22,871 bases of DNA from a plasmid, in sequence record NZ_AP024191.1, one strand, 5' to 3'. The notes under the pieces are model-generated. The model was not told where the DNA came from, ran no database searches, and was given only the letters and a program-made list of their open reading frames with translations. Shown here piece after piece: positions 1 through 22,871 of this stretch; the first letter of the stretch is position 1, and every line of letters starts with the position of its first letter. The translations under genes and the position numbers were made by a program.

Positions 1-3000
1 TTGCGTTGGTTGGTCCAGTCGCCGTGGGTGTTTGGGGTGATGCTCTGCCAGTCGATGCTCGGAAGGGTGTCACCAGCAATGATGGCGAGTTTGTCTTCGC
101 GGCTCAGGTAGTCGCCGATGTCGCGGTAGAAGATCTCGCAGTCGCCGGTGTGGTCGGGGTTCTTGACGCCGATGAGGATGGCGACGGTGTTGCGGCTGCC
201 GGATCCGAAGATCTTGCCGCCTTCCTTGCGGGAGAGCTCGCCCGCGGTGCGTTGGTTGCCGCGGAGGTTGTAGACGTAGATGCGGGAGTATTCGTCGGCC
301 AGGGACAGGCGGATGCCGTCGGCGGTGTTGCCGTCGATCCAGCCACCATTACTTACGAAGGCGACGATGCCGGTGTCGCCGATGCGGTCGGTGGCCCACC
401 GGAAGGCGCGCAGGTAGGAGTCGTAGAGGCTGTTCTTGTTCGTCGCCGTGGACCGAGCGGCGTAGGTGGCGCCGATCCGGCCGTCCAGGGTCGGGTAGGA
501 GACGTTCGCGTTCAGGTCGTTCGCCGACTCCTGACCCTTCGAGTAGGGCGGGTTGCCGATGACGACGTTGATGGGGATCTGTTTCTGGCGGATGATGCGG
601 TCGTTGTTCTGCGGGAACATCACCGAGTCGAGGCTGTCGCCGTCTTCGGTGATCTGGAAGGTGTCGGCGAGCACGATCCCCTCGAACGGCGTGTACTCCG
701 CCGCACCTTCGCTGCCGATGATCGCGTGGTAGGTGGATTCGATGTTCACCGCGGCGATGTAGTAGGCGAGGAGCATGATCTCGTTGGCGTGCAGTTCTTC
801 GGTGTACTTGCGCGCCAGGTCTTCCGGGAAGATGTGTTCCTGCAGGAGCCGGGTGAGGAATGTGCCGGTGCCGGTGAACGGATCCAGGATGTGGACGCCT
901 TCACTGGTCAGGCCCCGACCGAACGCGTCCTTCGAGGCTTGGTCGGCGGCACGGAGGATGAAGTCGACGACCTCGACCGGGGTGTAGACGATCCCGAGGG
1001 CTTCGGACTGCTTGCGGAAGCCGAGGCGGAAGAACTTCTCGTAGAGTTCGGCGATCACCTTCTGCTTGCCGTCGGCGGTGGTCACCTCGGCGGCGCGGGT
1101 GCGGACGGAGGCGTAGAAGCCGTCGAGTTTCGCGGTTTCGGCCTCCAATCCGGAGTCGCCAAGGGTGCCGACCATCGCCTCCATCACCTTCGAGACGGGG
1201 TTGTGGGAGGCGAAGTCGTGTTCGGCGAACAGGGCGTCGAACACCGGCTTGGTGATCAGATGCTGCGAAAGCATGCTGATCGCGTCATCGCGGGTGATGG
1301 AGTCGTTGAGGTTATCCTTCAGGCCCTGATGGAACTTCTCGAACGCGGCCGCCACCTCGGGCGACGCCCCCGCCAGCAAGGCCTTGATGCGGGTGATCTG
1401 GGCGGCGGCGATGTCGGCGACGTCGGCGGCCCAGTCTTCCCAGTAGGCGCGGGTGCCGACCTTGTCGACGATCTTCGCGACGATCGCTTCCTGCCACTCC
1501 GACAGCGAGAACAACGCCATCTGCGTCGCCATCTGCCCACCATCGGTGCCGCCCTCGGTCACAGAACCGGACGCATCGGCAGTACTGGCGGCATCGGTGG
1601 ACGAACCGGCGCCGGCGACGGATTCGTTGTCGCTGCTGACCGGGCCGATGTGGTCGCCCATCAGCAGCGATGAGCCCTTGCCGGTTTTCTTCGCCTCGGT
1701 GGTGGTGGTGTTGAGGGCGATGGAGTTGACCATCGCGTTGAACCGGTCGTCGTGCGCGCGGAGCGCGTTGAGGACCTGCCAGACGACCTTGAAGCGGCGG
1801 TTGTCCGACAGCGCCTGTGACGGTGAGACGCCGGCGGGGACCGCGACGGGCAGGATGATGTAGCCGTAATCCTTGCTGTCGGCCTTGCGCATCACCCGAC
1901 CGACGGACTGGACGACGTCGACGACGGAGTTGCGGGGGTTGAGGAACATCACCGCATCCAGGGCTGGCACGTCCACACCTTCGGACAGGCAGCGGGCGTT
2001 GGTCAGGATCCGGCACTCCCCCTCCGGCACTGGGGCTTTCAGCCAGGAGAGTTCGGCGTTGCGCTGCAGGGCATTGAAGGTGCCGTCCACGTGATGCACC
2101 GAGCACGCCAGATCCCGGTTCGTCGCCGACACCGCATGCCCGTCGTTCTCGTTCTCCTCCAGCAAGTCCCGATACGCATCGACCACGGATGGGAAGACCT
2201 CGGCGACCTGCTTCGAGGCAGCGATGTCCTTCGCGAACACCACCGCCCGCTTCATCGGCGGCTCCCCCGGCGCGAAGCCGGTCCCGTCCGGGGAGCGGCC
2301 GGCACGCTTGGCCAGGCCGTTCCAGCAGCCGACGATCTTCGAGGCGTCGTCGAGCTTGAGTTCGGAGAACTCCCCGGCCAACTGCTGCTGCAGCGGGGAG
2401 GCGACCAGGTCCTCGTCGACGGTCAGCACGATCACCTTGTAGTCGGTGAGCAGGCCGCGTTCGACGGCCTCGCCGAACGACAGTCGGTGGAACTCGGGGC
2501 CGTAGACGGCCTCGTCGTCCATCGAGGCGAGCTCGGCCGAATGCTCGGCGGCCTGGTCCTTGACCTTGTCGTCGAACAACCGCGGCGTCGCCGTCATATA
2601 CAGCCGGCGTGACGCTTTGAGGAAGTCGCCGTCGTGGACACGGACGAAGTTCGACTCGTCCTCACCTGCCAAGGTGACGCCGGTGGTGCGGTGCGCCTCG
2701 TCGCAGATCACCAGGTCGAACGGGTCCACCCCCTGCTGCTGCGCGGCCGCGACGACGGGCAGGGACTGATAGGTGGTGAACACCACCGTCAGGCCCTTGG
2801 CGCGCTTGCGGTGGGCCATCTCCGCGGCGAGGGTGGCCGGGTCGGTGGTGACTGGGATTGCGACATCGACCGCGCCGATGTCCTCGGCGGCGCGGGAGAC
2901 CTTCGTGTCCGAACACACCGCGAACGCCCGCAGATCCAGCTGCGTCTGCGCGGTCCACTCCCGCAACGTCTGCGACAGCAACGAGATCGACGGCACCGCG

Positions 3001-3671
3001 AACAGAATCCGCGCTGACCCGCCCCGCTCGAGCGCGGTGCGTTCGGCGATCTTGAGCGCAGTGAACGTCTTGCCGGTGCCGCACGCCATGATCAGTTTGC
3101 CGCGGTCGTTGCCGGCCTCGAACCCGGAGAACACCGCGTCGATCGCTGCCTGCTGGTGCAGGCGCGGATCGTGCCGCTTCGCCTCCGAAAGCTCCACCTG
3201 CAGCTCACCGGCGGGCCACGCGATGTTCCAGTCGATCGGAGACTCGGCGATCTCCGCCAACCCGATCCGCTGCACCGGAATCGTCTGGTCCTCGAGCGCC
3301 GCCTCGGCGTTCTTTCCCCACCGATCGGTGGTCGAGATGATCACCCGGTTCGTGAACGGCTTCTTCCCCGACGCCGTGAAGAACGAATCGATATCGCCCT
3401 TGGCGAGCATGTGGGTCGGCTCGTAGAACTTGCACTGGATCGCCGTCAACGCCCCGGTATCCCGTTCCCGGGCGACCAGGTCGATCCCGGTATCCGGCTT
3501 CCCGTCGCGGCCCGGCCACTCCGTCCACCGCCACACCTGGTCGTACTGCTGCGACAGCAGCGGGTCGAGCTGGAAGTAGCGGACCATCAACTGCTCGAAC
3601 TTCGTGCCGCGTTCGGAGTTGCTGGGTGCCTGACGGAACGCCTCGATGACCTCGTGAACCGAACCCGACAC
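1..3671 (-). CDS. Type ISP-like single-polypeptide restriction-modification enzyme, N-terminal ~1223 aa (Mrr-like nuclease + SF2 DEAH helicase + gamma-class N6-adenine MTase). Open past the left window edge.
   Basis: Hand translation of the minus frame is continuous from GTG at 3671 to position 1. Nuclease: GIDLVARERDTG...AIQCKFY. Helicase: motif I MACGTGKTFT, Ia VPSISLLSQT, II LVICDEAH, III LYMTATPR, VI QSVGRVMR. MTase: GIVYTPVEVVDFI, ILDPFTGTGTFL, VVIGNPPY. The only minus-strand ORFs the track lists in 1-3671 are in the other two frames, so this frame has no internal stop there, and an edge-running ORF would not be listed. The same frame stays open upstream to a TGA at 4229..4227, overlapping the divergent gene, so GTG 3671 is the nearest plausible start. 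Confidence 0.85.
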   Translation of the reverse strand, partial: MSGSVHEVIEAFRQAPSNSERGTKFEQLMVRYFQLDPLLSQQYDQVWRWTEWPGRDGKPDTGIDLVARERDTGALTAIQCKFYEPTHMLAKGDIDSFFTASGKKPFTNRVIISTTDRWGKNAEAALEDQTIPVQRIGLAEIAESPIDWNIAWPAGELQVELSEAKRHDPRLHQQAAIDAVFSGFEAGNDRGKLIMACGTGKTFTALKIAERTALERGGSARILFAVPSISLLSQTLREWTAQTQLDLRAFAVCSDTKVSRAAEDIGAVDVAIPVTTDPATLAAEMAHRKRAKGLTVVFTTYQSLPVVAAAQQQGVDPFDLVICDEAHRTTGVTLAGEDESNFVRVHDGDFLKASRRLYMTATPRLFDDKVKDQAAEHSAELASMDDEAVYGPEFHRLSFGEAVERGLLTDYKVIVLTVDEDLVASPLQQQLAGEFSELKLDDASKIVGCWNGLAKRAGRSPDGTGFAPGEPPMKRAVVFAKDIAASKQVAEVFPSVVDAYRDLLEENENDGHAVSATNRDLACSVHHVDGTFNALQRNAELSWLKAPVPEGECRILTNARCLSEGVDVPALDAVMFLNPRNSVVDVVQSVGRVMRKADSKDYGYIILPVAVPAGVSPSQALSDNRRFKVVWQVLNALRAHDDRFNAMVNSIALNTTTTEAKKTGKGSSLLMGDHIGPVSSDNESVAGAGSSTDAASTADASGSVTEGGTDGGQMATQMALFSLSEWQEAIVAKIVDKVGTRAYWEDWAADVADIAAAQITRIKALLAGASPEVAAAFEKFHQGLKDNLNDSITRDDAISMLSQHLITKPVFDALFAEHDFASHNPVSKVMEAMVGTLGDSGLEAETAKLDGFYASVRTRAAEVTTADGKQKVIAELYEKFFRLGFRKQSEALGIVYTPVEVVDFILRAADQASKDAFGRGLTSEGVHILDPFTGTGTFLTRLLQEHIFPEDLARKYTEELHANEIMLLAYYIAAVNIESTYHAIIGSEGAAEYTPFEGIVLADTFQITEDGDSLDSVMFPQNNDRIIRQKQIPINVVIGNPPYSKGQESANDLNANVSYPTLDGRIGATYAARSTATNKNSLYDSYLRAFRWATDRIGDTGIVAFVSNGGWIDGNTADGIRLSLADEYSRIYVYNLRGNQRTAGELSRKEGGKIFGSGSRNTVAILIGVKNPDHTGDCEIFYRDIGDYLSREDKLAIIAGDTLPSIDWQSITPNTHGDWTNQR

Positions 3672-3837
3672 CCTGACCTGCTTTCCTGCACACCTCGGCG
3701 CTGTGAACAGCTCCGAACCGATCCTCCACGTTGAGGGGTGAACGTTACCGAGTGACCGGGCGCTGACCAGGCAAGCGCCACCTACAGAGTTGTCGGTGCC
3801 CCCTGGTAGGTAGACCACCAACGGAAGGGGGGCGGGT
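3672..3837. promoter_or_regulatory. Divergent intergenic region between the restriction-enzyme gene and the CoiA-like gene. SD-like GGAAGGGGGG sits 5 nt before GTG 3838. Direct 8-mers GTGAACAG/GTGAACGT are present.
   Basis: Seen in sequence. No promoter hexamers confidently assigned. Confidence 0.35.
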
Positions 3838-5028
3838 GTGCCGCTGCTGGGCTTGGTCGATGGGGCGCGCACGGTCAGCAGCCTGCTGACCGCCGACGAA
3901 TGGGCAGCACTCAAATCCGAGGTCAGACGCAAACGCTGCAGGGTCGAGCTTCCCTGCGGAGCGGTAGGACATGTCAAGACCAGCCGACTCGGCACCCAAT
4001 ACTTCGCGCACAACGCCGGCGGTGACGGATGCAGCGCGGGTGAACGCGCGGAGCATCTGCTCGCCAAGAGCATCATCATCGCGGCCGCGCGCGGGGTCGG
4101 ATGGGACGCAGAACCCGAACATCGCGGCGAAGGCTGGATCGCCGACGTTCTCGCCACCCGCGGCAAGCAGCGGATCGTCTTCGAGGTGCAGTGGAGCCCC
4201 CAGTCTCCGGACGAGTTCCTCACCCGTCAGCAGCGGTACAAGGCCGAGGGCATCCGCTGCGCCTGGTTCGCACGAAAGACCACCGGACTCTCGTTCCCGG
4301 ACCCGGAACTGCCCGTCTTCGGCCTGGCGGTGACCGACGGCCAGGCTCACACCACCATCGAGGGCACCGTCATGCCCCTGGCGGATGCGGTCACGCGGTT
4401 ACTGACCGGACGTATCCGGTTCCGAGACCACCTTGCAAACGGTGAGCCGTCCGAAACCGACCTCGCTCTCCACCTCACGGACTGCTACAACTGCCACAAG
4501 GAGTTCGTGGTCTGGAACGTCCTCGAGAGCCGGGTGACCGGCGGTTGCGGGCGCACCCTCCCCATCCCCGATGACGAGCGGGAGATGTGGGCACAGACCC
4601 GCCCGGAAGCTGACCCTGCGATCGTCGAGACGGCACGGGCGGCCGCGCAGGAGCACGGCTGGGTACCGGCCCGCCTCGGCCTCCGCAGTACCCAAACGAG
4701 TGGCACCCGGTACATGGCCTTCATCTGCCCGTACTGCGGCAGAACCAGCGGTGACTACTTCCTGCAGCAACAATTCAGGTTCGACGATCCCGACGCCACC
4801 GCCACCGGAAAAGGGCCCCGCACTGCGGTCACCCACCCCCATTGGTGCCTCGCCCAAGACGACCCCTTGTGCCGCATCCCGCCGCAAGAAGTCATCGATT
4901 CGTTGCCGCAACCAGACGGCCTCGCCTCCGACCCAGACTTCACGGTCAGTGTCACCCCGGTCACCCGGCAGAACCAGCGGCAGGTAGTCGCTGACCTGTT
5001 CCGGCCGTACTACTACCCCGGCCGATGA
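3838..5028 (+). CDS. CoiA-like (competence protein CoiA family) predicted nuclease with a C-terminal CxxC zinc-ribbon extension
   Basis: N-terminal C..C...HVKTSRLGTQYFAH resembles CoiA_N (C..C...HFAH). AEHLLAKSII follows, then IADVL...IVFEVQWSPQSPDEFLTRQQRYKAEGIRCAWFA matches the CoiA core (IE.Q.S....R...Y...G..V.W). C-terminal CYNCH...CPYCG...HWC...C. Confidence 0.6.
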   Translation: MPLLGLVDGARTVSSLLTADEWAALKSEVRRKRCRVELPCGAVGHVKTSRLGTQYFAHNAGGDGCSAGERAEHLLAKSIIIAAARGVGWDAEPEHRGEGWIADVLATRGKQRIVFEVQWSPQSPDEFLTRQQRYKAEGIRCAWFARKTTGLSFPDPELPVFGLAVTDGQAHTTIEGTVMPLADAVTRLLTGRIRFRDHLANGEPSETDLALHLTDCYNCHKEFVVWNVLESRVTGGCGRTLPIPDDEREMWAQTRPEADPAIVETARAAAQEHGWVPARLGLRSTQTSGTRYMAFICPYCGRTSGDYFLQQQFRFDDPDATATGKGPRTAVTHPHWCLAQDDPLCRIPPQEVIDSLPQPDGLASDPDFTVSVTPVTRQNQRQVVADLFRPYYYPGR

Positions 5029-5127: not shown

Positions 5128-5328
5128 GTGAGGACATTGACGATCCGTCGACCGATCGACGATCGGACGCGCCGTGAACAGGTCATCCGCGCCGCCCGAA
5201 CCACCAGCGAACTTGAGGGTGCGCGCAGCACCGATGTGACCCGTGCCGACCAGGACGCTTACGTCCGCGGTGAGATCGACATTGCTCAGCTCGGGGCCCG
5301 GGTCCGGGCCCGCTACAACCTTGCCTAA
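5128..5328 (+). CDS. VbhA/FicA-like antitoxin of a class I Fic toxin (alternative start TTG 5137 after GGAGGTG)
   Basis: About 63-66 aa. Contains TTSELEG, which fits the (S/T)xxxE(G/N) inhibitory-helix motif. Lies immediately upstream of the fic gene. Confidence 0.6.
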   Translation: MRTLTIRRPIDDRTRREQVIRAARTTSELEGARSTDVTRADQDAYVRGEIDIAQLGARVRARYNLA

Positions 5329-5355
5329 CCTCCCGGGTCTTCGCGGAGATCTCCG

Positions 5356-6000
5356 GTGAGCAGAGATTGCCCGTGGGACACCGGTGATGTCGACGCCAAC
5401 TGGGAGGGCTATTTCCTACCTGACACAGACGTGCTGCGTAACCGGGTCGGGGCCACCACCGTTGCCGGTCTTGCTGCCGCCGAGAACGATCTCGTCGAGA
5501 TCCGGGTGGCTGAGCTGCGCGCAGATTCCACTCCTGTGCCGCGCACCTACGATCTCGTACATCTGCAGGCTGTGCACCGGTACCTGTTCCAGGACGTGTT
5601 TGAGTGGGCGGGAGAGTTGCGCACTGTCGGCATCGAGAAGGCCGGCGAATCGTTCATACCTCCTCTCGACATCGCGCGGCCGGTTGCACACGTTGCCGAC
5701 GAGATCGCTCGCACGGACCAGCTGCGTGGCGTTGCCGACGCCCAGCTCCCGGACCGCCTTGCCTACCTGTACGACTACATCAACTTCGCGCACCCGTTCC
5801 GCGAGGGCAACGGCCGCACCCAGCGGGAGTTCTTCGACCAGCTGATGTCCGAGTCCGGTCGAGGTTTGGCCTGGAATCTGATCGGCAAGACCGAGCTGCA
5901 CCACGCGTGCCACGTCGCTCGAGCCGCCGGTGATCTCGAACCGCTATGCACAATGTTCGCGCGCATCGTCGACAACGAACCCGCCTACCTCTACCCCTGA
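5356..6000 (+). CDS. fic: Fic/Doc-family (Fido) protein, toxin of a FicT/FicA-type module
   Basis: Canonical Fic motif HPFREGNGRTQREF (HxFx(D/E)GNGRxxR). Size 214 aa. Preceded by a small antitoxin-like gene. Confidence 0.85.
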   Translation: MSRDCPWDTGDVDANWEGYFLPDTDVLRNRVGATTVAGLAAAENDLVEIRVAELRADSTPVPRTYDLVHLQAVHRYLFQDVFEWAGELRTVGIEKAGESFIPPLDIARPVAHVADEIARTDQLRGVADAQLPDRLAYLYDYINFAHPFREGNGRTQREFFDQLMSESGRGLAWNLIGKTELHHACHVARAAGDLEPLCTMFARIVDNEPAYLYP

Positions 6001-6093: not shown

Positions 6094-6136
6094 ACGGTAA
6101 TACAGCTTTACAGCTGCTGTAGAGCTGTATTACCGT
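6094..6136. repeat. 43-bp near-perfect palindrome (14-bp arms ACGGTAATACAGCT / AGCTGTATTACCGT around an inner palindrome TACAGCtGCTGTA). Putative par centromere/operator.
   Basis: Reverse complement done by hand: 3 mismatches over 43 bp. Located 42 bp upstream of parA. Confidence 0.7.
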
Positions 6137-6177
6137 CATTACGGTTCTACGGTTCCGCGAAAGGGGCATTCTTCAGG

Positions 6178-6765
6178 ATGATCATCAGCACGGTGAACAC
6201 GAAGGGTGGGACGGCGAAGTCTACGACGTCGATCTACCTGGCCACGGCTTACAGCCGACTCGGTAAGCGTGCGGTTGTGTTGGATTTGGACAAGCAGGGG
6301 TCTGCTACAGACTGGGCCGATCGGGCATCGGAGAACGATGACCCTTTGCCCTTCCCGGTTCATGTGGCGAACATGAAGCGACTTTCCAAGTACGCGGAAT
6401 CGACCGAGTACGACGTGATCCTGATCGACACCCCGCCCGGGGACAGTCAGGTGATTGACGCCGCCATCGCTGTCTCCGATTTCGTGATCCTGCCGACTCA
6501 AGCAACCGGCCTGGACACCGCGCGGGTGTGGGAGACGTTGCCAGCGGTGAAGGACCGGATCCCCTACGGCGTCCTCATCACATCCGCCCGGCTCAACACC
6601 AACCTGCTGGAGAACGCGAAAGCAGCATTCGACGACAACGACATCTCCCGCTTCGACACGGTCATCCCCATGCGAGAACGCATCCGGACCACCTTCGGTT
6701 GGACGCCAACCCATGACGACGGGTACGCCGACGTGATCAAGGAGATCGAGGAGGCACTTGCATGA
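6178..6765 (+). CDS. parA: ParA-family partition ATPase
   Basis: Deviant Walker A KGGTAKSTTS, then the DLDKQG and ILIDTPP motifs. 195 aa. Confidence 0.85.
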   Translation: MIISTVNTKGGTAKSTTSIYLATAYSRLGKRAVVLDLDKQGSATDWADRASENDDPLPFPVHVANMKRLSKYAESTEYDVILIDTPPGDSQVIDAAIAVSDFVILPTQATGLDTARVWETLPAVKDRIPYGVLITSARLNTNLLENAKAAFDDNDISRFDTVIPMRERIRTTFGWTPTHDDGYADVIKEIEEALA

Positions 6766-7013
6766 GTCTGAACAAACCGAAGGGAAACCTCGGTCCGAGG
6801 AAGCCCCTGAACACTCCGTCCGAACCGACACCCTCCCCGGCGCCGTCCGTCGCGGCCGGCTTCATCGAGCCTGCTCGTACGAAGCTGACCGTGCACATCG
6901 ATGAGGATCTTCACCGTCGATTCAAGTCGACAGTGGCAGCCAGCGGTCAGACGATGCGCGCCGTCGTCGAAGAGGTTCTCGAGGACTGGGTCAGGCGGAA
7001 CGCCGCCTCCTGA
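6762..7013 (+). CDS. Ribbon-helix-helix partition/centromere-binding protein (ParG/CopG-like)
   Basis: ATGA overlap with the parA stop. C-terminal KLTVHIDEDLHRRFKSTVAASGQTMRAVVEEVLEDWV has an RHH fold signature. Confidence 0.6.
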   Translation: MSLNKPKGNLGPRKPLNTPSEPTPSPAPSVAAGFIEPARTKLTVHIDEDLHRRFKSTVAASGQTMRAVVEEVLEDWVRRNAAS

Positions 7014-7411: not shown

Positions 7412-7705
7412 TCAGCAGGCGTCACGGACGGAGCTCTCCCTCTCTTCGAGCTTGCGCGCATCGTGCAGGATGCGGCCGACTGCGCCGGTGGAGATACCCA
7501 TCTCTTCGGCGATGTCCTTGTACTTCATCCCCTGTCTGCGTAGGGCGACGACGCGGTCTCGCCGAACCTTTGCACGTTCGAGGAACTCGTCGCGGGGCTC
7601 GGCGATGAGCCGGCGGGCAGTGCGCTCGGATGAGCCGAGACGTTCTGCGAGTTCTCGGGCGGTGATGGACCGGCGTTGCGGGGCGCGGGCTGCACCTGTG
7701 CTCAT
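7412..7705 (-). CDS. repB: RepB-like small HTH DNA-binding protein (sigma-70 region-4-like), coupled to repA
   Basis: 97 aa. LRRQGMKYKDIAEEMGISTGAVGRILHDARK has an HTH. Its ATG overlaps the repA TGA (ATGA). The track's 420-aa ORF 7412..8674 is this gene fused to an antisense run-on. Confidence 0.6.
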   Translation of the reverse strand: MSTGAARAPQRRSITARELAERLGSSERTARRLIAEPRDEFLERAKVRRDRVVALRRQGMKYKDIAEEMGISTGAVGRILHDARKLEERESSVRDAC

Positions 7706-8679
7706 AGCGCGTACTCCAGTGCTGTGGCGAGATCGAATTTGGTGGCTCGTTTCCGGTTGGCTTCGATCTTGGCAGGGGTCATGACTTTTCCGCCTTTGCT
7801 TCCGCGGTGGGCTTGGCGGGCGCGGTAGGCGTCTTCGTCGAAGTTGCGCCAGATCCATTTGCCGATGGAGTGGGCGGTGGCACGAACTTCGACGAAGGGG
7901 AGGGGGTCGGCGAACTGGGTGTTGATGGCGTGGCAGTGCTGGAGTATGAGCATCAGCCAGGCGTCGAGGCCACCGTCGCGGTGGTGCCACCACTGGGGAT
8001 ACGCCCACTTGCGGGCGGTGTCGAACATGGTGACGTTGCGGCCGAGGCCGCCGGCGCGGTCGGGTCGCCGCGGTGCTTGCCGGGGGGTGTGGATGGTGGC
8101 GAGCTGGCGCAGCGTGTACGGCGTCGACGGCCCGTAGATCGTCTCCCAATCGGGGTGGATGGGGTTCTTGGTGAGCTGCCCGCCGTAGGAGAAGTCGCCC
8201 CCGACGCAGAGCTTGAGGCCGGTTTCGATGCGGTGCGCGTACCGCAGCGGGGTCAGGCGGGCGGAGTCGGTGCGGCAGACGTGGTTCGGGCCGAGCCACC
8301 AGCCGAGGTGCGCGCGCCCGGAGGGGGACTGGGCGACCCAGTTCGGCGCCGGATGGTCTCGGGGCTTTTCGAAGGCACGCATCGCGGCGTCGGGGTGGTC
8401 GCAGTCGATGACGATGGAGCCGAGCAGCGCGTGGGGCGAATGCTCGATGTAGCGCATCGCCAGGGCGTCGCCGCGACTCATCCGGTACTGGCCGCGGTCG
8501 AGGTAGTTCGTCGCGTACGGGCGGTGCGGGAGCAGTACCTCGTCGGCCCATTGGGCGTCGTCCAGCAACAGTGCCCCCGTGGTGTCCATGGAGAGCAAGG
8601 GTGCCGCACCAAGATCGATGTTCGAGTCGGACACGCCGAGCCATATAGAAAATTCTTCGGGTAGGCCGCGCCAAGCCAT
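7702..8679 (-). CDS. repA: Plasmid replication initiator RepA, primase-like (pAL5000/ColE2-type assignment is from memory). Start assumed at ATG 8679 (MAWRG...). The ORF stays open to 8943.
   Basis: GSIVIDCDHPDA has a hhhDxD primase-polymerase-like motif. Size about 325 aa. A small HTH partner gene is coupled downstream and a repeat-rich region lies upstream. Confidence 0.6.
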   Translation of the reverse strand: MAWRGLPEEFSIWLGVSDSNIDLGAAPLLSMDTTGALLLDDAQWADEVLLPHRPYATNYLDRGQYRMSRGDALAMRYIEHSPHALLGSIVIDCDHPDAAMRAFEKPRDHPAPNWVAQSPSGRAHLGWWLGPNHVCRTDSARLTPLRYAHRIETGLKLCVGGDFSYGGQLTKNPIHPDWETIYGPSTPYTLRQLATIHTPRQAPRRPDRAGGLGRNVTMFDTARKWAYPQWWHHRDGGLDAWLMLILQHCHAINTQFADPLPFVEVRATAHSIGKWIWRNFDEDAYRARQAHRGSKGGKVMTPAKIEANRKRATKFDLATALEYAL

Positions 8680-9026
8680 ATCAGGTATCCCGGCGTCCCC
8701 TTCGGTTTTTCTGGGTGTTCCGTGGGGGATCGAGCTCCTTTTAGGGTTTCCTTCGGTTCGTAATTTCGGAAGGTCCCCGGTGATCCACGAGAGGTCGTAC
8801 GACGACAGCACCCTTCTTTCTGCTGGTTCGCTTTTGTCTTCCGTCGTACGCCCCGGGAGTGCTACAGGGGCGGTTGACGTTGGTTCGCGCCGACAAGGAC
8901 AGCAGCGGTCAGGGATCCGGGCATGGCTGACCGCAGACGACACCCGCGCCGAGTCTGGTGCGGAGCCTGCGACGGCGGGGCTTCGGCGCTCTGACTGACG
9001 CCGCTGACGGTTAGTCGGGGCCGGGT
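8680..9026. other. Putative replication origin / repA promoter region with short repeats
   Basis: CCTTCGGTT occurs twice (8699, 8750). The palindrome GTCGTACGAC (8793-8802) and CGTCGTACG (8843) are present. CTGAC occurs at least 4 times in 8925-9010. The region is relatively AT-richer than its surroundings. Confidence 0.4.
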
Positions 9027-16597: not shown

Positions 16598-16598
16598 A

Positions 16599-16871: not shown

Positions 16872-17891
16872 TCAGCCGCGGCACTCCTCGCATAGTCCGG
16901 CCATGAGGAGATGTGGTTGGAAACGTAGATAGCAACCGTTGCAGGTTTGCTCCCGCAATGCGGCTCGCTCACAACGACAGTGCTTGCACTGTGGGCAGAA
17001 CGGTTGCTCACATGTAGGACAGGGATATCCGCGTGCGATCTGGGACTTGCCGCAGCAGTAGATTTCGGTCGCGGGTCGTTCATCGAACTCCCGGGGAGGA
17101 TCGACGTGGAGGCGCTCTGCGTTCCACAAGTCGATGTCGGAGAACACCGCCATGACACGTTTGCCACCGTCATGGACGGCGTCTACGTAGAACTCCGCCG
17201 GCGCATCCCAGCGGTTCCTCCAGATGACCCTCTTCGTAACCGACCCACCGGGGGCAAGGTTCAACAGCGGATGACCGTCGGGTACCAGCTGATTGCGCCA
17301 CGGGAACACTGTGGGCCATCCTCGATCGAGGTCTGGCCTCACACTGGAGTGAGACACCCGAGCGGTGGTTTGATCGACGACCAGGACGGCACCGAGGCTC
17401 GGTAGTCGTTTCGCCAATGCAATCGCGCAGACTGGCCGGCTGGCATGGCTTACGTCGAACAGTTCAAGTACATGATGAGCCCGGATCGGCCCCTTACCGA
17501 TGACCGTATCGACGACACCATCAGGAAGCAGGAGACGCTGGGCGATGTGGTCGCAGACTGTCTCCAACAGGCGTGGTGGGTCGTCTTGATCTGCAATCCA
17601 GTCGTAGAGTTCCTCCGCCTGCTCGACGAGCCAATGCCCCAGCTCGTGTCCCAATGTGAAGTTTTCTCGTCGGCTGTGGGGGGTAGGGGCGTAGAGGATG
17701 ACTCCATCTTGAAGGAAGGAGATTCCGTCACAAGCGCCGCCGTCGTTGCGGTTCTCGGCCAAATGCTCGACGCACTCAACCTCGATTCCAAGCTCGGTGC
17801 GAAGAGTTTGGATCGGGCTCAACGTGAAGTTCTCACGCGCCATCTGGGGCAAGATCTTCAAAGCTGTGTCAACGCACCAGCCGAGGTCCAC
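16872..17891 (-). CDS. ImmA/IrrE-family Zn-metallopeptidase with a C-terminal Cys-rich (multi-CxxC) domain
   Basis: RRENFTLGHELGHWL has the HEXXH motif in the ImmA/IrrE context. The C-terminus is CCGKSQIARGYPCPTCEQPFCPQCKHCRCERAALREQTCNGCY...CEECRG. The start GTG sits 1 nt after the XRE gene's TAA. Confidence 0.75.
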   Translation of the reverse strand: MDLGWCVDTALKILPQMARENFTLSPIQTLRTELGIEVECVEHLAENRNDGGACDGISFLQDGVILYAPTPHSRRENFTLGHELGHWLVEQAEELYDWIADQDDPPRLLETVCDHIAQRLLLPDGVVDTVIGKGPIRAHHVLELFDVSHASRPVCAIALAKRLPSLGAVLVVDQTTARVSHSSVRPDLDRGWPTVFPWRNQLVPDGHPLLNLAPGGSVTKRVIWRNRWDAPAEFYVDAVHDGGKRVMAVFSDIDLWNAERLHVDPPREFDERPATEIYCCGKSQIARGYPCPTCEQPFCPQCKHCRCERAALREQTCNGCYLRFQPHLLMAGLCEECRG

Positions 17892-18554
17892 TTATGGTCC
17901 CTTCGTTCTTTCCACAGTTTCTACCAGCGCTTCGAGTGACCGCAGCATCTGGCTTGAGTCGGGGTGATCTCCGCGATGCGCAGTCGCCAGCAGTCGTGAT
18001 TCCAGAGCCGAAGCAGCCAATTCCCGTGACATGTCTTGGATTCGCGCCCATCGGTCCACGAGCTTTTGGAAGCCCGGAGTCTTCCTTACGCTGGCAAGAG
18101 CCTCGTCCTCAGTGCGTACAGCTGTGCTTGTGGTCAGGAGCTCGGCGACGGTTCTGGTTTCCTCTGCGATTGCTGCGATTAGTGCGGGTGGCACGTTTGA
18201 TGTCGAACGATTCTCCCACCGGAATACTTCTCCGGCCTGTACTTCCCACCCCCGCGCTGTCAGTCGTTCCGCTAGCTGGCTCGCAGATAGACCGGCATTT
18301 TTGCGGGCCCGCTTCAATGCGTTGCTGTCAAGCGCGCGCTCAGGATCAGGGACAAGGCCGAGCATCGCTGCCACGGGGTCGGATGACAGAGGCGGAGCAC
18401 CTTGTGCCTTCTCTCGGAGAAGGTCTGCTATGTCGGTTAGGGCTGTTATGTACTCCCCTTCGTCGGCTGCTTCGATCTGGAGTGGATCCATCGCTTGGCC
18501 TGCTCGAATCTCATGCAGGGAGGCGAGCAGCTCTTCCCGTTCCTTCTCCTTCAT
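17892..18554 (-). CDS. XRE-family HTH protein (220 aa), partner of the ImmA-like peptidase
   Basis: LKRARKNAGLSASQLAERLTARGWEVQAGEVFRWEN is an HTH. Its ATG overlaps the sigma gene's TGA (ATGA). Confidence 0.7.
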   Translation of the reverse strand: MKEKEREELLASLHEIRAGQAMDPLQIEAADEGEYITALTDIADLLREKAQGAPPLSSDPVAAMLGLVPDPERALDSNALKRARKNAGLSASQLAERLTARGWEVQAGEVFRWENRSTSNVPPALIAAIAEETRTVAELLTTSTAVRTEDEALASVRKTPGFQKLVDRWARIQDMSRELAASALESRLLATAHRGDHPDSSQMLRSLEALVETVERTKGP

Positions 18555-19084
18555 CCTTTTACCTCCTCCCAGCCCATCGCTTCTCGTAACTTGGCAAGAG
18601 CTTCAAGCTTCATCTGGCTGACTCGTCCCGGTGTAACGCCGAGTTCGGCAGCTACTTCATTTCGTGGTCGCTCAAGCGCGACGAACTCCCACGCAACCTT
18701 TCGGTGTCGCTCGTCCAAGGAAGGCAGGGCCTCGTTGATGCGCTTCGCTAACTGTTGGCGCTCGAGTGCGGACGCAACCTCGTCGGACAGGTCGGTGGAG
18801 TCTGCGTAGTCGTGTTCTTCGGATAGCTCAGGGCCGGAATTTTTAACGGCCGCAGACTTGAGGTGATCCAACGCCTTCCGCTGGACGACCCGTATTAAGA
18901 AGGCTTCCCAGTTCTGCACCGTACTTTTAGGCGGGGAGGACATGATGGACACGATCGCGTCTTGGACAACGTCGTTTGCGTGTCCTTCTCGCCCATAGCC
19001 ACGAAGCTTTGACGCTGCGACACGATGCAGGGCGTCACGGTGCTTCGCGTAGAGAGCAGCGAGGTCGGGCGGTCTTTCTGTCAT
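18551..19084 (-). CDS. ECF-type sigma-70 family sigma factor (177 aa from ATG 19084; track ORF extends to 19276)
   Basis: Region-2-like LYAKHRDALHRVAASKLRGYGREGHANDVVQDAIVSIM. Region-4-like LPSLDERHRKVAWEFVALERPRNEVAAELGVTPGRVSQMKLEALAKLREAM. Confidence 0.75.
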   Translation of the reverse strand: MTERPPDLAALYAKHRDALHRVAASKLRGYGREGHANDVVQDAIVSIMSSPPKSTVQNWEAFLIRVVQRKALDHLKSAAVKNSGPELSEEHDYADSTDLSDEVASALERQQLAKRINEALPSLDERHRKVAWEFVALERPRNEVAAELGVTPGRVSQMKLEALAKLREAMGWEEVKG

Positions 19085-19357
19085 CCCCACTACCGCCTCA
19101 TGCCACTCGCTGTTGAGCGCATCAGTGACGCTCCTCCCCGTACCTTGGCCAACATCATCACCCCTGCAACCGTGTCCTGATCCGTAGTCGAGATAGCAGT
19201 CATCAGAGTTAGCACCAACCCCCGGTCTCTCCGGGCAGTCTGTCTTGCCCTGAAAACAACCCCTTCCGGGCGCCACTGATCTCGCCGGGTCGGTGCTCGA
19301 CCTCGTGCTGGCTGGTATCGAAAACCGGTCTCCACATCATCTGGCATCGATCGTTTG

Positions 19358-20320
19358 TCAGGTGTGTTTGGTGCACAACAGATTCGGAGTGGTGCACCAA
19401 CCCTGGTCTTCGAGCCAGCGGTGGACCGCGGAGGGTAGGCCGCTTGTGGGTACGGCGCCGATGACCAGTGGCCCTTCGCCGCAGAGACCGCAACTGATCG
19501 CTATGACCTGCTGGTGGGGTTGGCATCGGACGCAACGCCGATGCTCGCGGACCTGGCCGTCGGAGTCGACGTGCAACCAGACCATGTCGAGGTCGTCGAG
19601 GTGCGGGCCCGCCTCCTGTCGTGTCGACGGCCGGTAACCGCAGGTCGGGCACGTCAATCGGTCCTCACCCGGACCAGGAGTGGAAACGGCTGCCGGGACA
19701 GCACTGTCGGCCTCGATCGGGGCCGCGGGTGAGACGGTCATCAACTCTGTCGGCCTCGGTGGCAGGTGCCGGTAGAGGGTGGAGCGGGTCAGTCCGGTCT
19801 TGGCGACGATCTCGGAGACGGTGGCGCCAGTGTCTCGTAGTTGGATGGCGTGGGCGATCTGGGATTCGGTGACCACCGACGGGCGGCCGGTGCGCCGGCC
19901 CTTCGCGGTCGCGACCTGGCGGGCGTGGGCGGCGCGTTCGAGGGTGTAGGTGCGTTCCATCTGTGCGAACAGTGCGAGTAGTACGACGGCCAGCTGTGCC
20001 ATCGGGTCGTCCGGGTTCGAGGAGTCGATGCGGATCGGATCTGCCAGGTTCCGCACTCCGATGCCACGCTCGCGTAGGTCGTGGATCAGGTTCAGGGTGT
20101 CGCGCACGTTCCGGCCGAGCCGGTCGAGGGTGTGCGTGACGATGACGTCGCCGTCGCGGGCGTACTCGAGCAGTGCGGTCAGTCCGGGGCGGTCGGTGGT
20201 GGCCCCGGACTTCTTGTCGACGTAGATGTTTGCCGGGTCGATCCCGGCCGTGGTGAGGGCGTCGATCTGCCGGTCGAGGTCCTGTTTGGTCGTCGACACC
20301 CGCGCGTATCCCAGCTCCAC
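19358..20320 (-). CDS. Serine recombinase (resolvase/invertase family) with a roughly 120-aa Cys-rich C-terminal extension. An alternative GTG start is at 20365.
   Basis: GYARVSTTKQDLDRQ has the catalytic Ser context. DVIVTHTLDRLGRN follows. HTH: TVSEIVAKTGLTRSTLYRHL. Tail: CPTCG...CVRCQ...CGLCG. Confidence 0.8.
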   Translation of the reverse strand: MELGYARVSTTKQDLDRQIDALTTAGIDPANIYVDKKSGATTDRPGLTALLEYARDGDVIVTHTLDRLGRNVRDTLNLIHDLRERGIGVRNLADPIRIDSSNPDDPMAQLAVVLLALFAQMERTYTLERAAHARQVATAKGRRTGRPSVVTESQIAHAIQLRDTGATVSEIVAKTGLTRSTLYRHLPPRPTELMTVSPAAPIEADSAVPAAVSTPGPGEDRLTCPTCGYRPSTRQEAGPHLDDLDMVWLHVDSDGQVREHRRCVRCQPHQQVIAISCGLCGEGPLVIGAVPTSGLPSAVHRWLEDQGWCTTPNLLCTKHT

Positions 20321-20365
20321 GCCGGGAGCGTATCGAAAGTTGCCCCCGTAGCAAGGTTTCGACAC

Positions 20366-20470: not shown

Positions 20471-21478
20471 TCAATCAGTTCGGATCGGCATGACCACGCA
20501 GTCTTCAATAACTACATCCGGCGTTTGGTCGTCCGGCAGTTCGAGTCGGGGCGAGTTGGTGACGCCGAAAGGAACATGCACGCATGGGGCCACCGTGGTT
20601 GCGGGGGCAAGATGCTTGGTTTGGTCATCGAAGAAGATGTGCGGTTTGAGGATTTCGAGGACTTTCGTTTTGGACACTCCACCGAGGAAGAAGGCATCGT
20701 TTACGGTCACGCCCCAGCTCTTGAGGCTTCGGACGGCCCGCTCATGGGATGGAGCATTTCGTGCGGTGACGATCGCGACGTGAACTCGAATCCGGTAGCT
20801 CTTGTCGGCCAAGCGGCGCTTCTCTTCAACCTTCTGGATGCGGTTGACGGCTGCGAGTAGGTCGCGCAGAGGGCCTGGTCTCAGGGGCTCAAGAACCTTC
20901 TTCACCTCGTGGCTGTGGAAGTCATCCAAACCGCTTTGCTGCATCACACGTTCGGACTCGTCAGACGCAAGCACCCCATCGAAGTCGAAGGCAATTCGCA
21001 GATCGGCGCTGTCATCCGTGTCTTCCACTGCGTTGCCGAGGACAAGTCCGGCCGGATGGCCCGCCGCGACGGCTTGCCGGACGTCCTTGTCGTTTCCCGA
21101 AAGAAACAAAGACATGTTGAACGCTGGCATGAACTTGTGTGGAGAGCGGCCCTGGCGGAAGACAGCTCGCGTGATGGGAAGGCCGTGATACTGGATTGAG
21201 CGCATCACGCGCAGACCGGTGTCAGGGTCGTTGCGAGACAGAACAATGACCTCAACCAAGGGAGAACCTATGTCTTCCGTGAGGTCGTTGAGTGACAACA
21301 ACCGCTTGATGAAGGCGAAGGCCACACCCGGACGAAGCGGGTCATCAAGATGATCCTCCTGGAACCTTCGATACCCTTCTTCCCCCTCAGCGTTGAACAC
21401 GTCATCGGACTCCGCCAGGTCGAATAGTGCGCTCGATGCAACACCGATGACTAACTGATCGTCCAGACTGACTGCCAT
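20471..21478 (-). CDS. 5'-nucleotidase-family (PF06189-like, HAD-superfamily) protein
   Basis: The N-terminal LVIGVASSALFDL, VEVIVLSRNDPDTGLRVMRSI and GLPITRAVFRQGRSPHKFMPAFNMSLFLS blocks match my recollection of the bacterial 5'-nucleotidase family (LVIAISSRALFDL...VEVILLSRNS.DTGLR...GL.ITRAAF.GG..P..YL.AF...LFLS). Confidence 0.6.
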   Translation of the reverse strand: MAVSLDDQLVIGVASSALFDLAESDDVFNAEGEEGYRRFQEDHLDDPLRPGVAFAFIKRLLSLNDLTEDIGSPLVEVIVLSRNDPDTGLRVMRSIQYHGLPITRAVFRQGRSPHKFMPAFNMSLFLSGNDKDVRQAVAAGHPAGLVLGNAVEDTDDSADLRIAFDFDGVLASDESERVMQQSGLDDFHSHEVKKVLEPLRPGPLRDLLAAVNRIQKVEEKRRLADKSYRIRVHVAIVTARNAPSHERAVRSLKSWGVTVNDAFFLGGVSKTKVLEILKPHIFFDDQTKHLAPATTVAPCVHVPFGVTNSPRLELPDDQTPDVVIEDCVVMPIRTD

Positions 21479-21546: not shown

Positions 21547-21568
21547 CCGCAGTAGGTGCTGATTGCTC

Positions 21569-22871
21569 CTACAGGCTTTCGACGACCTTCATCGTCTCGA
21601 CCGCCACTGTCGTCACCCGACGGATCAGGTCCACGATGTAGGTGGGGTCGTCGTGCTCGTCGCACCAGTCGTTGGGGTCGTTGACGATCCCGGATGCCTT
21701 GTCGGTCTTGACCTGGTAGCGGTCGATGATCCACGCCAACGCTGACCGGGAACCGAGCATGTACCGTTCGGCAGCTTCCGGGATACCGGTGATGGTGACC
21801 TTCGGGTTGTAGACGATGGTGGTGCGGTCGTCGACGTTCTTGCCGGTGTCTGGGTCCTTCTGCTTGCCCCACTTGAGCTTCGACACCCGCCACGTCTCAC
21901 GATCCTCGGCGGACGCCCCCTTCGCGATCTGCACGTCCAGCTCGTACGGCTGCACGGTTTCGTAGCTCACGTGCAGATCTGCGAGGCGGCGGCCGGCGTC
22001 GGCAAGCTGTTCGAAGCGTTCGCGCGATGCTGGGGCGGGGATGTGCGGGAGCATCTTCTTCAGGTCCGCCGCGTACGTCTCCCTATATGCGGGGTCGTGG
22101 AGCAGCCCGTACACGTAGTAGAAGATGTCGTCCTTGGTGACCTGGGCGCCCACGGTGTAGCGGTAGAGGTCGAGGATGCCATCGGTGATGTTGTCGACCG
22201 GTCGGTAGCCGTACTCGTCGACTTCGGCCGTCTCCGCAGTTACGAAGTCTAGCTCACCATCAGCGGATTCGGCCTTGGCGTATGTCCAGCGGGTGAAGAA
22301 CTGGCCACTGCCGGATCCCCAGAAGGATAGGTCGGGGATCGCGTCGGTCAACAGGGCGGAGAACGGCTTGTCAGATCCGGTACCGACCACGTAGAAGCCG
22401 ATGTTCTTGTGGTGCGGGGTCGGGAACATCGACGGGAGCTGTGACCGCTCATGGTTGAGGTGCTTGTCGAAGTAGGTGTGCTGCTTACTGAACGGCCTGT
22501 AGAGGCCGACGACGTGTCCCGCCGACCGGGGTGAGATCTCTGCTCGGCGGGCGAGGTGGGCGCGCAGGCTTCGAGACCATTTGATGTAGTCCGCTTGTGC
22601 GGCCTGGGGGTTCGCGGTGAGGTAGGCGGTGACGGCGGCTTCGTTCGGTCGGGTGATCCCGGTGTCGCGGCAGTATTGAGCGAACGGGGTGTGCTGGTCG
22701 TTGTAGTTGCCGATGAGACGTTGCACATTCGCGGTCAGGTCTGCGCGCGAGTAGTTGTACACCCACGTGTCACGGTTCGTTTGCAGCCCCGCGGAGAAGG
22801 TAGAGAAGACGGTGACCTGCCCAGGCGTGAGGCTTTTCTCCCCGATGGCAGGCCATGCCAGGTATTCGTCG
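21569..22871 (-). CDS. C-terminal ~434 aa of a large helicase-methylase-type restriction enzyme (Type ISP C-terminal/specificity-like region). Open upstream past the right window edge. Probably the 3' part of the gene at 1..3671 if the molecule is circular.
   Basis: The track ORF 21569..22762 begins with GTG, but the same frame has no stop up to 22871 (hand translation ...DEYLAWPAIGEKSLTPGQVTVFSTFSAGLQTNRDTW-VYNYSR...). The C-terminal block YMLGSRSALAWIIDRYQVKTDKASGIVNDPNDW is, from memory, typical of the C-termini of helicase-MTase restriction fusions. Confidence 0.7.
   Translation of the reverse strand, partial: DEYLAWPAIGEKSLTPGQVTVFSTFSAGLQTNRDTWVYNYSRADLTANVQRLIGNYNDQHTPFAQYCRDTGITRPNEAAVTAYLTANPQAAQADYIKWSRSLRAHLARRAEISPRSAGHVVGLYRPFSKQHTYFDKHLNHERSQLPSMFPTPHHKNIGFYVVGTGSDKPFSALLTDAIPDLSFWGSGSGQFFTRWTYAKAESADGELDFVTAETAEVDEYGYRPVDNITDGILDLYRYTVGAQVTKDDIFYYVYGLLHDPAYRETYAADLKKMLPHIPAPASRERFEQLADAGRRLADLHVSYETVQPYELDVQIAKGASAEDRETWRVSKLKWGKQKDPDTGKNVDDRTTIVYNPKVTITGIPEAAERYMLGSRSALAWIIDRYQVKTDKASGIVNDPNDWCDEHDDPTYIVDLIRRVTTVAVETMKVVESL

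What the first reader, a model, noticed from the sequence alone, without database searches (positions are those of the whole stretch)
1..22871. Window may be one complete circular plasmid, linearised inside the restriction enzyme gene
The minus-strand restriction gene at the left edge loses its C-terminus past position 1, and the minus-strand ORF at the right edge is open past 22871. Joining 22871 to 1 keeps the frame: the dangling 'aa' at positions 2-1 plus base 22871 gives AAC, and the next codon starts at 22870, which is the frame of the right-edge ORF. The left piece carries nuclease, helicase and MTase domains and the right piece looks like the C-terminal specificity part of the same enzyme class. 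Together they would give about 1657 aa. The window also holds a full replication (repA/repB + ori), partition and resolution set.
Basis: partly seen in the sequence, partly recalled or inferred. Interest (0 to 1): 0.6.

Follow-up and report, generated by a model that had tools for sequence, protein, structure and literature searches.

The report
Complete circular Prescottella equi plasmid
The window is one whole circular 22.9-kb plasmid of the horse pathogen Prescottella (Rhodococcus) equi, cut open for the database record in the middle of a large restriction enzyme gene; this is an ordinary, already deposited record.

Summary
The observation and the interpretation both hold. The minus-strand frame that is open at the left edge (3..4226) and the one open at the right edge (21572..22870) join in phase across 22871|1, through codon AAC (Asn1224). 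From GTG 3671 the joined gene encodes 1657 aa.

- **Match to a deposited protein.** The joined protein is identical, residue for residue, to RefSeq WP_221297315.1 of Prescottella equi. That protein is recorded on a single contig of exactly 22,871 bp. Other window proteins are GenBank entries labelled "(plasmid) [Prescottella equi]", with locus tags RE9431_.
- **Enzyme architecture.** The joined protein has the complete Type ISP layout: Mrr nuclease, SF2 helicase, coupler, N6-adenine methyltransferase and Type_ISP_C specificity domain.
- **Continuity at the junction.** It aligns end to end, with no gap at the junction, to Nocardia pNF2 and Rhodococcus pGZ03 homologues and to LlaGI and LlaBIII.
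- **Synteny.** Gene order runs through the junction in a related circular Rhodococcus plasmid.
- **Maintenance set.** RepA/RepB, a conserved candidate origin, ParA with a ParG-like protein, a serine resolvase and a VbhA–Fic toxin–antitoxin pair.

There are no terminal repeats and no internal duplication. This is an already known record, and interest is low.

The parts
1..3671 (-). Type ISP restriction-modification gene, 5' part: start GTG 3671, codons 1-1223 plus the first two bases of codon 1224. Approximate domain coordinates: Mrr nuclease 3213-3569, SF2 helicase 1884-3170, coupler 1071-1445, N6-adenine MTase 267-1061.
   Evidence: Open frame. Start codon and Shine-Dalgarno-like sequence. 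Pfam Mrr_cat_2 7.9e-49, ResIII 7.9e-25, ISP_coupler 4.3e-50, N6_Mtase 1.3e-5. Motifs GTGKT (198), DEAH (324), QSVGRVMR (588), DPFTGTG (930), NPPY (1040).
21569..22871 (-). Type ISP gene, 3' part: third base of codon 1224 (22871), codons 1225-1657, stop at 21569-21571. The target-recognition domain (Type_ISP_C) lies at about 21626-22810.
   Evidence: Open frame. Pfam Type_ISP_C 3.5e-96, residues 1245-1639. Aligned with LlaGI and LlaBIII across the join.
20471..21478 (-). 5'-nucleotidase family gene (335 aa), immediately downstream of the Type ISP gene.
   Evidence: Pfam PF06189 1.8e-126. PADLOC candidate PDC-S08 2.8e-138. GenBank BCN66527.1 '5'-nucleotidase (plasmid)'.
19358..20365 (-). Serine recombinase (resolvase), the likely multimer-resolution function.
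   Evidence: Pfam Resolvase 4.2e-36 plus HTH_7 4.3e-9. 92% identical to the recombinase of the 14.3-kb P. equi plasmid.
16872..19276 (-). Three-gene regulatory block: M78/CapP-like peptidase (16872-17891), HTH protein (17892-18554), sigma-70-like protein (18551-19276).
   Evidence: Pfam Peptidase_M78 (weak), HTH_31 (weak), Sigma70_r2/r4. PADLOC capP 6.7e-13.
7702..8589 (-). repA, replication initiator (295 aa) of the Replicase + PriCT_1 (ColE2/pAL5000-type) kind.
   Evidence: Pfam Replicase 6e-19 and PriCT_1 9.3e-6. 94% and 91% identical to Rep proteins of P. equi and Rhodococcus plasmids. WP_221297323.1.
7412..7705 (-). repB, a sigma-70 region 4-like HTH protein (97 aa). Its ATG overlaps the repA stop.
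   Evidence: Pfam Sigma70_r4_2 1.8e-9. 86% identical to the annotated sigma factor-like HTH protein next to rep in L007. Coordinates.
8590..8696 (.). Candidate origin or RepB-binding region: conserved non-coding stretch upstream of repA with two 26-nt direct repeats (8621-8646, 8656-8681) around an A/T-rich spacer.
   Evidence: Repeats. Nearly invariant in three plasmids, with conservation collapsing beyond about 8696. Function is inferred, not shown.
6094..7013 (+). Partition module: 21-nt-arm palindrome (6094-6136), parA (6178-6765, 195 aa), ParG-like ribbon-helix-helix gene (6762-7013, 83 aa).
   Evidence: Palindrome I4, 95% complementary. Pfam AAA_31/CbiA/ParA. NCBIfam ParA_partition 9.2e-33, below its curated cut-off. 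Pfam ParG 7.2e-5 and RHH.
5128..6000 (+). Toxin-antitoxin pair: VbhA-type antitoxin (5128-5328) and Fic-domain toxin (5356-6000).
   Evidence: Pfam VbhA 4.7e-13 and Fic 1.3e-13. PADLOC PDC-S04 9e-63.

Best explanation
The window is the complete sequence of a circular 22,871-bp plasmid of Prescottella equi (Rhodococcus hoagii/equi). It is a deposited record with locus tags RE9431_. Its arbitrary first base falls inside codon 1224 of a 1657-aa single-chain Type ISP restriction-modification gene, at the boundary between the methyltransferase and the target-recognition domain. On the real molecule the gene is intact.

**Shown by homology**
- RepA (primase-like Replicase + PriCT_1) and RepB (HTH) for replication.
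- A small Walker-type ParA with a ParG-like ribbon-helix-helix protein for partition.
- A serine resolvase.
- A VbhA-Fic toxin-antitoxin pair.
- The Type ISP enzyme itself.

**Inferred from characterised relatives**
- Replication starts from the conserved repeat-bearing region upstream of repA.
- The resolvase resolves plasmid multimers.
- The toxin-antitoxin pair causes post-segregational killing.
- By analogy with LlaGI and LlaBIII, the Type ISP enzyme methylates one strand of an asymmetric site. It also translocates on ATP from unmodified sites and cuts foreign DNA where two converging enzymes collide.
For: - **In-phase join.** The join gives one 1842-codon open frame and a 1657-aa gene from GTG 3671.
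- **Identity to a deposited protein.** The joined protein is identical to P0001 = WP_221297315.1 [Prescottella equi], seen on one contig of 22,871 bp.
- **Other window proteins.** They are BCN66505.1, BCN66509.1, BCN66518.1 and BCN66527.1, labelled '(plasmid) [Prescottella equi]', also on a 22,871-bp contig.
- **Full-length homologue alignments.** Single full-length alignments to pNF2 and pGZ03 homologues.
- **Ungapped DNA junction.** The DNA alignment through the junction has no gap, with 23 identical bases around it.
- **Full architecture.** All five Type ISP domains are present. LlaGI scores 1166 bits and LlaBIII 1158 bits, both spanning residue 1224.
- **Synteny.** In the circular Rhodococcus sp. 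NJ-530 plasmid the order resolvase, RM 3' part, RM 5' part, repB/repA matches the window read through the junction.
- **No repeats.** There are no terminal direct or inverted repeats and no internal duplication.
- **Backbone genes.**
- **Conserved repA-upstream region.**
- **No phage similarity.**
Against: - No reads or assembly graph were available, so physical circularity rests on the seamless gene, synteny and the public annotation.
- The record's topology field could not be read directly. That PGAP gives a complete protein across a record's ends only for circular records is my knowledge of GenBank conventions.
- The exact junction 42-mer was not found in any other public assembly searched.
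- The origin, the centromere and the res site are not demonstrated.
- The enzyme's activity and recognition sequence are unknown.
Confidence: 0.95

Rival explanations
1. The window is a slice of a larger replicon, or one unit of a concatemeric assembly. It would run from the middle of one copy of the Type ISP gene to the same point in a second copy, so the ends only appear to abut.
For: Over-assembly of related plasmids does occur. CP094640.1 'p2287' (22,584 bp, flagged linear) carries about 1.58 copies of a 14.3-kb plasmid.
Against: - The proteins are recorded on a contig of exactly 22,871 bp labelled plasmid.
- The window has no internal duplication.
- The ends abut to the base, with neither overlap nor gap relative to homologues.
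- One complete replication and partition set is present.
Confidence: 0.03
2. The circle is an assembly artefact: a linear plasmid or a mis-joined contig. The continuity of the gene would then be produced by wrong circularisation or trimming.
For: Rhodococcus and Prescottella do carry linear plasmids (own knowledge, for example pVAPN). No read-level evidence was available here.
Against: - There are no terminal inverted repeats.
- A wrong join would have to restore exactly a conserved codon series, DWTNQR|N|DEYL, matching LlaGI, LlaBIII and pNF2 without an indel.
- Synteny through the junction is seen in an independent circular plasmid.
Confidence: 0.02
3. The in-frame join is a coincidence between two unrelated open frames at the edges.
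For: Frame agreement alone has a 1 in 3 chance. High-GC DNA also has many long spurious open frames.
Against: - The joined protein is colinear and full length against about 120 listed homologues at 71-100% identity.
- It carries the Type ISP domains in canonical order.
- It is colinear with the solved structures.
Confidence: 0

Closest known systems
LlaGI (pEW104) and LlaBIII (pJW566), Type ISP restriction-modification enzymes of Lactococcus lactis plasmids (PDB 5ffj, 4xqk; PMC4666363, PMC3553950, PMC2790903)
   Same: - Single polypeptide with the same five domains in the same order: Mrr nuclease, SF2 helicase, coupler, gamma-type N6-adenine MTase and C-terminal TRD.
- 1158-1166 bits to both structures.
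- Walker A, DEAH, motif VI, FxGxG and NPPY motifs are present.
- The nuclease D...QxK region aligns with LlaBIII.
- Plasmid-borne, like both.
   Different: - It comes from an actinobacterial host with about 65% GC.
- It has a roughly 60-residue Ser/Thr/Ala/Gly-rich linker between helicase and coupler, the least conserved part even against pNF2 (51% identity).
- The TRD is the most divergent domain among close relatives (74-82% against 87-98% elsewhere), so the recognition sequence is probably different and is unknown.
- No activity has been tested.
Nocardia farcinica IFM 10152 plasmid pNF2 protein WP_011212389.1, and homologues on many Rhodococcus, Nocardia, Gordonia and Mycobacterium plasmids and chromosomes
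   Same: 82.6% identity over the full length, almost the same length (1653 against 1657 aa), and an ungapped junction region. About 120 full-length relatives at 71% identity or more are listed.
   Different: The neighbourhoods differ. pNF2 has a tyrosine recombinase and an ars operon next to the gene. pGZ03 has unrelated hypothetical genes.
14.3-kb Prescottella equi plasmids (OK094682.1, NZ_CP095478.1, CP094640.1 'p2287') and Rhodococcus sp. NJ-530 unnamed3 / R. qingshengii pN9T4-3
   Same: - Shared backbone: RepA 91-94% identical, RepB about 80-86%, resolvase 92% (P. equi plasmid).
- Conserved repA-upstream region, and several small hypothetical genes in common.
- The NJ-530 plasmid also has resolvase, Type ISP gene and rep genes in the same circular order.
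   Different: - The 14.3-kb plasmids lack the Type ISP gene, the 5'-nucleotidase and the Fic module. They carry TIR and PIN genes instead.
- The window's ParA is a different, shorter type (195 aa, only 43% identity over the N-terminus to the NJ-530 ParA).
- No PLSDB record covers 80% or more of the window.
pAL5000-type (RepA + DNA-binding RepB) and ColE2-type theta replicons
   Same: - Two adjacent, translationally coupled genes: a Replicase/PriCT_1 initiator and a small HTH DNA-binding protein.
- A repeat-bearing non-coding region next to repA.
- pAL5000 needs RepA and the DNA-binding RepB (PMC7157519).
- RepA has 2950 plasmid matches, including small enterobacterial plasmids with annotated replication initiation proteins, at 30-38% identity.
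   Different: Direct similarity to pAL5000 itself was not tested because its sequence was not retrieved. The origin is not mapped.

Membership tests
Type ISP restriction-modification enzymes | A single polypeptide carrying all functions | tested here: met
   One 1657-aa ORF across the junction, identical to WP_221297315.1.
Type ISP restriction-modification enzymes | N-terminal Mrr-family nuclease | tested here: met
   Pfam Mrr_cat_2 7.9e-49, residues 35-153. Aligns with the LlaBIII nuclease, including DTGxDLVA...AIQxKFY.
Type ISP restriction-modification enzymes | Superfamily 2 helicase-like ATPase | tested here: met
   ResIII, DEAD and Helicase_C. GTGKT, DEAH and QxxGRxxR motifs. 420 bits to the LlaGI helicase region.
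Type ISP restriction-modification enzymes | Coupler domain between helicase and MTase | tested here: met
   Pfam ISP_coupler 4.3e-50, residues 743-867, full profile length.
Type ISP restriction-modification enzymes | N6-adenine methyltransferase with the NPPY motif | tested here: met
   N6_Mtase 1.3e-5, above its cut-off. DPFTGTG and NPPY present.
Type ISP restriction-modification enzymes | C-terminal target-recognition domain | tested here: met
   Pfam Type_ISP_C 3.5e-96, residues 1245-1639, profile positions 2-342 of 342.
Type ISP restriction-modification enzymes | ATP-driven translocation, cleavage on collision between head-to-head sites, and one-strand methylation (PMC4666363) | not testable with these tools
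   This is a biochemical property. It is inferred only from about 1160-bit similarity to LlaGI and LlaBIII.
Complete circular plasmid | The two ends of the sequence are contiguous on the molecule | tested here: met
   - Seamless gene across the join.
- Synteny through the junction.
- A full-length RefSeq protein on a 22,871-bp contig.

This is indirect: no reads were available.
Complete circular plasmid | Autonomous replication module | tested here: met
   RepA (Replicase + PriCT_1) and RepB, 91-94% identical to Rep proteins of complete plasmids. Function was not tested.
Complete circular plasmid | Origin of replication | tested here: inconclusive
   A conserved 105-nt non-coding region with 2 x 26-nt repeats lies upstream of repA. 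There is no functional or family-level proof.
ParA/ParG (type Ib) partition system | Small Walker-type ParA, a ribbon-helix-helix centromere-binding protein and a centromere | tested here: inconclusive
   - ParA domains are clear, but the NCBIfam ParA_partition score of 113.5 is below the 180 cut-off.
- ParG scores 23.3 bits against a 21.4 cut-off.
- The palindrome at 6094-6136 is only a candidate site.
Serine resolvase | Resolvase catalytic domain plus a C-terminal HTH | tested here: met
   Resolvase 4.2e-36 and HTH_7 4.3e-9. The res site was not identified.
FicTA (VbhA/Fic) toxin-antitoxin | A small VbhA-type antitoxin gene immediately upstream of a Fic-domain gene | tested here: met
   VbhA 4.7e-13. 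Fic 1.3e-13. The genes are 27 nt apart on the same strand.

The most novel reading that the evidence does not exclude
The plasmid may be mainly a compact defence and addiction vehicle. On this reading the Type ISP enzyme has a new recognition specificity, because its TRD is its most divergent domain. It would also work together with its immediate neighbours. Those are the PF06189 5'-nucleotidase (PADLOC candidate PDC-S08) just downstream, and further along the same strand the CapP-like peptidase, HTH protein and sigma-factor block. Together they would form a regulated multi-gene anti-phage island that influences which phages and plasmids P. equi strains can take up.
Probability: 0.12. Interest if true: 0.3.

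Novelty: already known. Interest (0 to 1): 0.08.

Why it matters
The practical point is record-keeping. Any scan that treats this record as linear sees two truncated genes at the edges and may misjudge them. Rotating the sequence restores one intact 1657-aa Type ISP restriction-modification gene. RefSeq names this protein only 'DEAD/DEAH box helicase', so the restriction-modification nature of this widespread actinobacterial protein family is under-annotated. A plasmid-borne Type ISP system in P. equi could affect uptake of phages and of virulence or resistance plasmids, but nothing here suggests new biology.

Tried and rejected
- **Exact junction search.** A 42-mer across the junction was searched in genome contigs, metagenome contigs and viral contigs, with no hit.
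- **Terminal sequence search.** The terminal 52-mer was searched in genome contigs and metagenome contigs, with no hit. The source record is not in those collections, so no independently linearised copy could be found.
- **Encoding-contig look-ups.**
  - The look-up on P0001 found no gene on record, probably because origin-spanning genes are not indexed.
  - The look-up on the 5'-nucleotidase gave only two short Logan contigs, 99.7-99.8% identical over 19934-21659. They stop about 1.2 kb before the junction.
- **PLSDB.** A megablast found no record covering 80% or more of the window.
- **Phage origin.** Rejected: no megablast match, and PHROG matches only to families of unknown function.
- **RNA genes.** No Rfam family and no tRNA were found.
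- **RM and 5'-nucleotidase as a conserved pair.** Rejected for the two plasmids checked (pNF2, pGZ03). Their Type ISP genes have other neighbours, and no tblastn hit to the nucleotidase was found.
- **Literature.** Searches found no paper describing this plasmid.
- **GC skew.** It was uninformative for replication geometry, because it follows gene strand.
Full report
**Observation**

The window is 22,871 bp with 64.6% G+C. On the minus strand one frame is open from 4226 down to 3, leaving bases 2-1 unread. Another is open from 22870 down to 21572 and ends in a stop at 21569-21571. The + strand begins 'tt' and ends 'g'. On the minus strand the dangling AA plus C therefore gives AAC, and the next codon starts at 22870. 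Joining the ends produces a single 1842-codon open frame. The first start with a Shine-Dalgarno-like sequence (GGAAAGCAGG) is GTG 3671, which gives 1657 aa.

**Is the join real?**

Frame agreement alone is a 1 in 3 event, so I tested colinearity.

- A megablast against PLSDB showed that in Nocardia farcinica pNF2 and many Rhodococcus plasmids the two ends of the window match one contiguous stretch of about 4.9 kb annotated as a single 'DEAD/DEAH box helicase' gene.
- The joined protein gives one BLASTP alignment to the pNF2 protein (joined 188-1842 against 2-1652, 82.6% identity) and one to the pGZ03 protein (77.5%).
- A 600-nt probe centred on the junction aligns to pNF2 with no gap at the join. 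GTATTCGTCG|TTGCGTTGGTTGG is identical in both.
- Against the solved Type ISP enzymes, the junction codon (Asn1224) sits in the conserved motif DW(T/I)NQR(N/D) and the alignment runs straight through it.

**Database identity**

A search of the protein collection returned P0001, with 100% identity, 100% coverage and 1657 aa. It is RefSeq WP_221297315.1, 'DEAD/DEAH box helicase [Prescottella equi]', seen on one contig whose length is 22,871. String comparison confirms exact identity.

Other window proteins are GenBank BCN66505.1 (ParA), BCN66509.1 (RE9431_49640), BCN66518.1 (RE9431_49730) and BCN66527.1 (5'-nucleotidase). All are labelled '(plasmid) [Prescottella equi]' and sit on a 22,871-bp contig.

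The window is therefore a whole deposited plasmid record, with no flanking sequence. RefSeq already annotates the gene as one complete protein. By GenBank convention (my knowledge) that requires a circular record with the CDS joined across the origin.

**Further support for a circle**

- In the circular 28-kb plasmid of Rhodococcus sp. NJ-530, the matching blocks lie in the order resolvase, RM 3' part, RM 5' part, repB/repA. That equals window 19751→22506→15→3666→7412→8694 read through the junction.
- The window has no terminal direct or inverted repeats and no internal duplication. This argues against a linear plasmid and against a concatemer.
- By contrast, the related record CP094640.1 'p2287' (22,584 bp, 'linear') is visibly about 1.58 copies of a 14.3-kb plasmid.

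**What the split gene is**

Pfam places the following domains:

| Domain | Residues |
|---|---|
| Mrr_cat_2 | 35-153 |
| ResIII / DEAD / Helicase_C | 168-596 |
| ISP_coupler | 743-867 |
| N6_Mtase / Eco57I | 871-1135 |
| Type_ISP_C | 1245-1639 |

This is the domain list that defines Type ISP enzymes (PMC4666363 abstract). PDB matches are LlaGI at 1166 bits and LlaBIII at 1158 bits. The nuclease region aligns with LlaBIII. Walker A, DEAH, motif VI, FxGxG and NPPY are intact.

Among close relatives the TRD is the most divergent domain (74-82% identity, against 87-98% for helicase, coupler and MTase in P0002). That is expected if specificities differ.

The mechanism is inferred from LlaGI and LlaBIII (PMC4666363, PMC3553950). 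These enzymes methylate one strand, translocate on ATP from unmodified sites, and cleave where two converging enzymes collide. It is not shown here.

**The plasmid backbone**

- **Replication.** repA (7702-8589, Replicase + PriCT_1) and repB (7412-7705, sigma-70 region 4-like HTH, start overlapping the repA stop) are 80-94% identical to the Rep pairs of P. equi and Rhodococcus plasmids. The arrangement is like pAL5000, which needs RepA and a DNA-binding RepB (PMC7157519). The RepA family extends to small enterobacterial plasmids with annotated replication initiation proteins; calling it ColE2-like is my knowledge.
- **Candidate origin.** The 105 nt upstream of repA (8590-8696) are almost invariant in three plasmids. 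They contain two 26-nt direct repeats around an A/T-rich spacer, and conservation stops abruptly beyond. This is a candidate origin or operator, inferred only.
- **Partition.** A 195-aa ParA (6178-6765) and an overlapping ParG-like ribbon-helix-helix gene (6762-7013) are preceded by a 21-nt-arm palindrome (6094-6136).
- **Resolution.** A serine resolvase lies at 19358-20365.
- **Addiction.** VbhA antitoxin plus Fic toxin lie at 5128-6000.
- **Mobility.** No relaxase or phage-like function was detected. Related plasmids are typed non-mobilizable.

**Verdict**

The remaining uncertainty is only that no read-level evidence could be examined. The record, its plasmid status and the full-length protein are already public. 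The enzyme is a clear member of a well-studied family with many actinobacterial homologues. Novelty is 'already known' and interest is low. The only useful residue is an annotation note: the family is named 'DEAD/DEAH box helicase' in RefSeq although it is a complete Type ISP restriction-modification enzyme.

Noticed in passing
L006 (CP094640.1, 1-22584): The related P. equi record 'p2287' (22,584 bp, flagged linear) is an over-assembled 14.3-kb plasmid. Its genes repeat with a period of about 14,313 bp (about 1.58 copies), and the second repA copy is split into two CDSs.
   Followed up: partly
window 10068-10092 and 11480-11504: Two inverted copies of a 25-nt motif (22 of 25 bases complementary, exact 15-nt core GCAAGAGGTGTGTGG) lie 1.4 kb apart. 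Each sits in an A/T-rich, apparently intergenic stretch. Chance expectation is 0.08 matches. They may be a shared promoter or operator for divergently transcribed genes, or the ends of a small element.
   Followed up: partly
window 10516-10582: A 9-nt tandem repeat (AGCAGAGCA, 7.2 copies, 94% matches) lies inside overlapping open frames of unknown function. It could be a length-variable, in-frame repeat.
   Followed up: no
window 16872-19276 (-): Three genes sit back to back: a CapP-like M78 peptidase (PADLOC capP 6.7e-13), an HTH protein and a sigma-70-like protein with a KorA/TrfB-like C-terminus. They resemble the CapH/CapP-type regulators of defence systems (my knowledge). The block lies in a lower-GC segment (57-61%).
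   Followed up: partly
window 20471-21478 (-): A PF06189 5'-nucleotidase (PADLOC candidate PDC-S08, 2.8e-138) sits 90 nt downstream of the Type ISP stop on the same strand. The pairing is not seen next to the homologous genes in pNF2 or pGZ03. Two Logan contigs (SRR34038741, SRR34065935) carry the same RM-end and nucleotidase arrangement (the longer one also the start of the resolvase gene) at 99.7-99.8% identity.
   Followed up: partly
window 13002-14507 (+): A 501-aa ORF with strong coding signal (GC3 0.83) has no Pfam, NCBIfam, PADLOC or PHROG match. Near-identical proteins occur in other P. equi genomes and in metagenome contigs. Its function is unknown.
   Followed up: partly
window 15492-16403 (-): A 303-aa ORF is 66% identical to a hypothetical gene of the 14.3-kb P. 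equi plasmids. It matches PADLOC candidate PDC-M36A (1e-9) and phrog_27295 (3.8e-25), both of unknown function.
   Followed up: no
window 3838-5028 (+): An ORF transcribed divergently from the Type ISP gene has a short CoiA-like nuclease domain match (1.5e-5). Its listed start overlaps the region upstream of the RM gene, so the true start is probably further downstream.
   Followed up: no
window 10400-12200 versus 16000-19400 and 20400-21800: Base composition is mosaic: 70-73% G+C around 10.4-12.2 kb, against 57-61% in the regulator block and the nucleotidase gene. This suggests cargo of different origins on a shared backbone.
   Followed up: no
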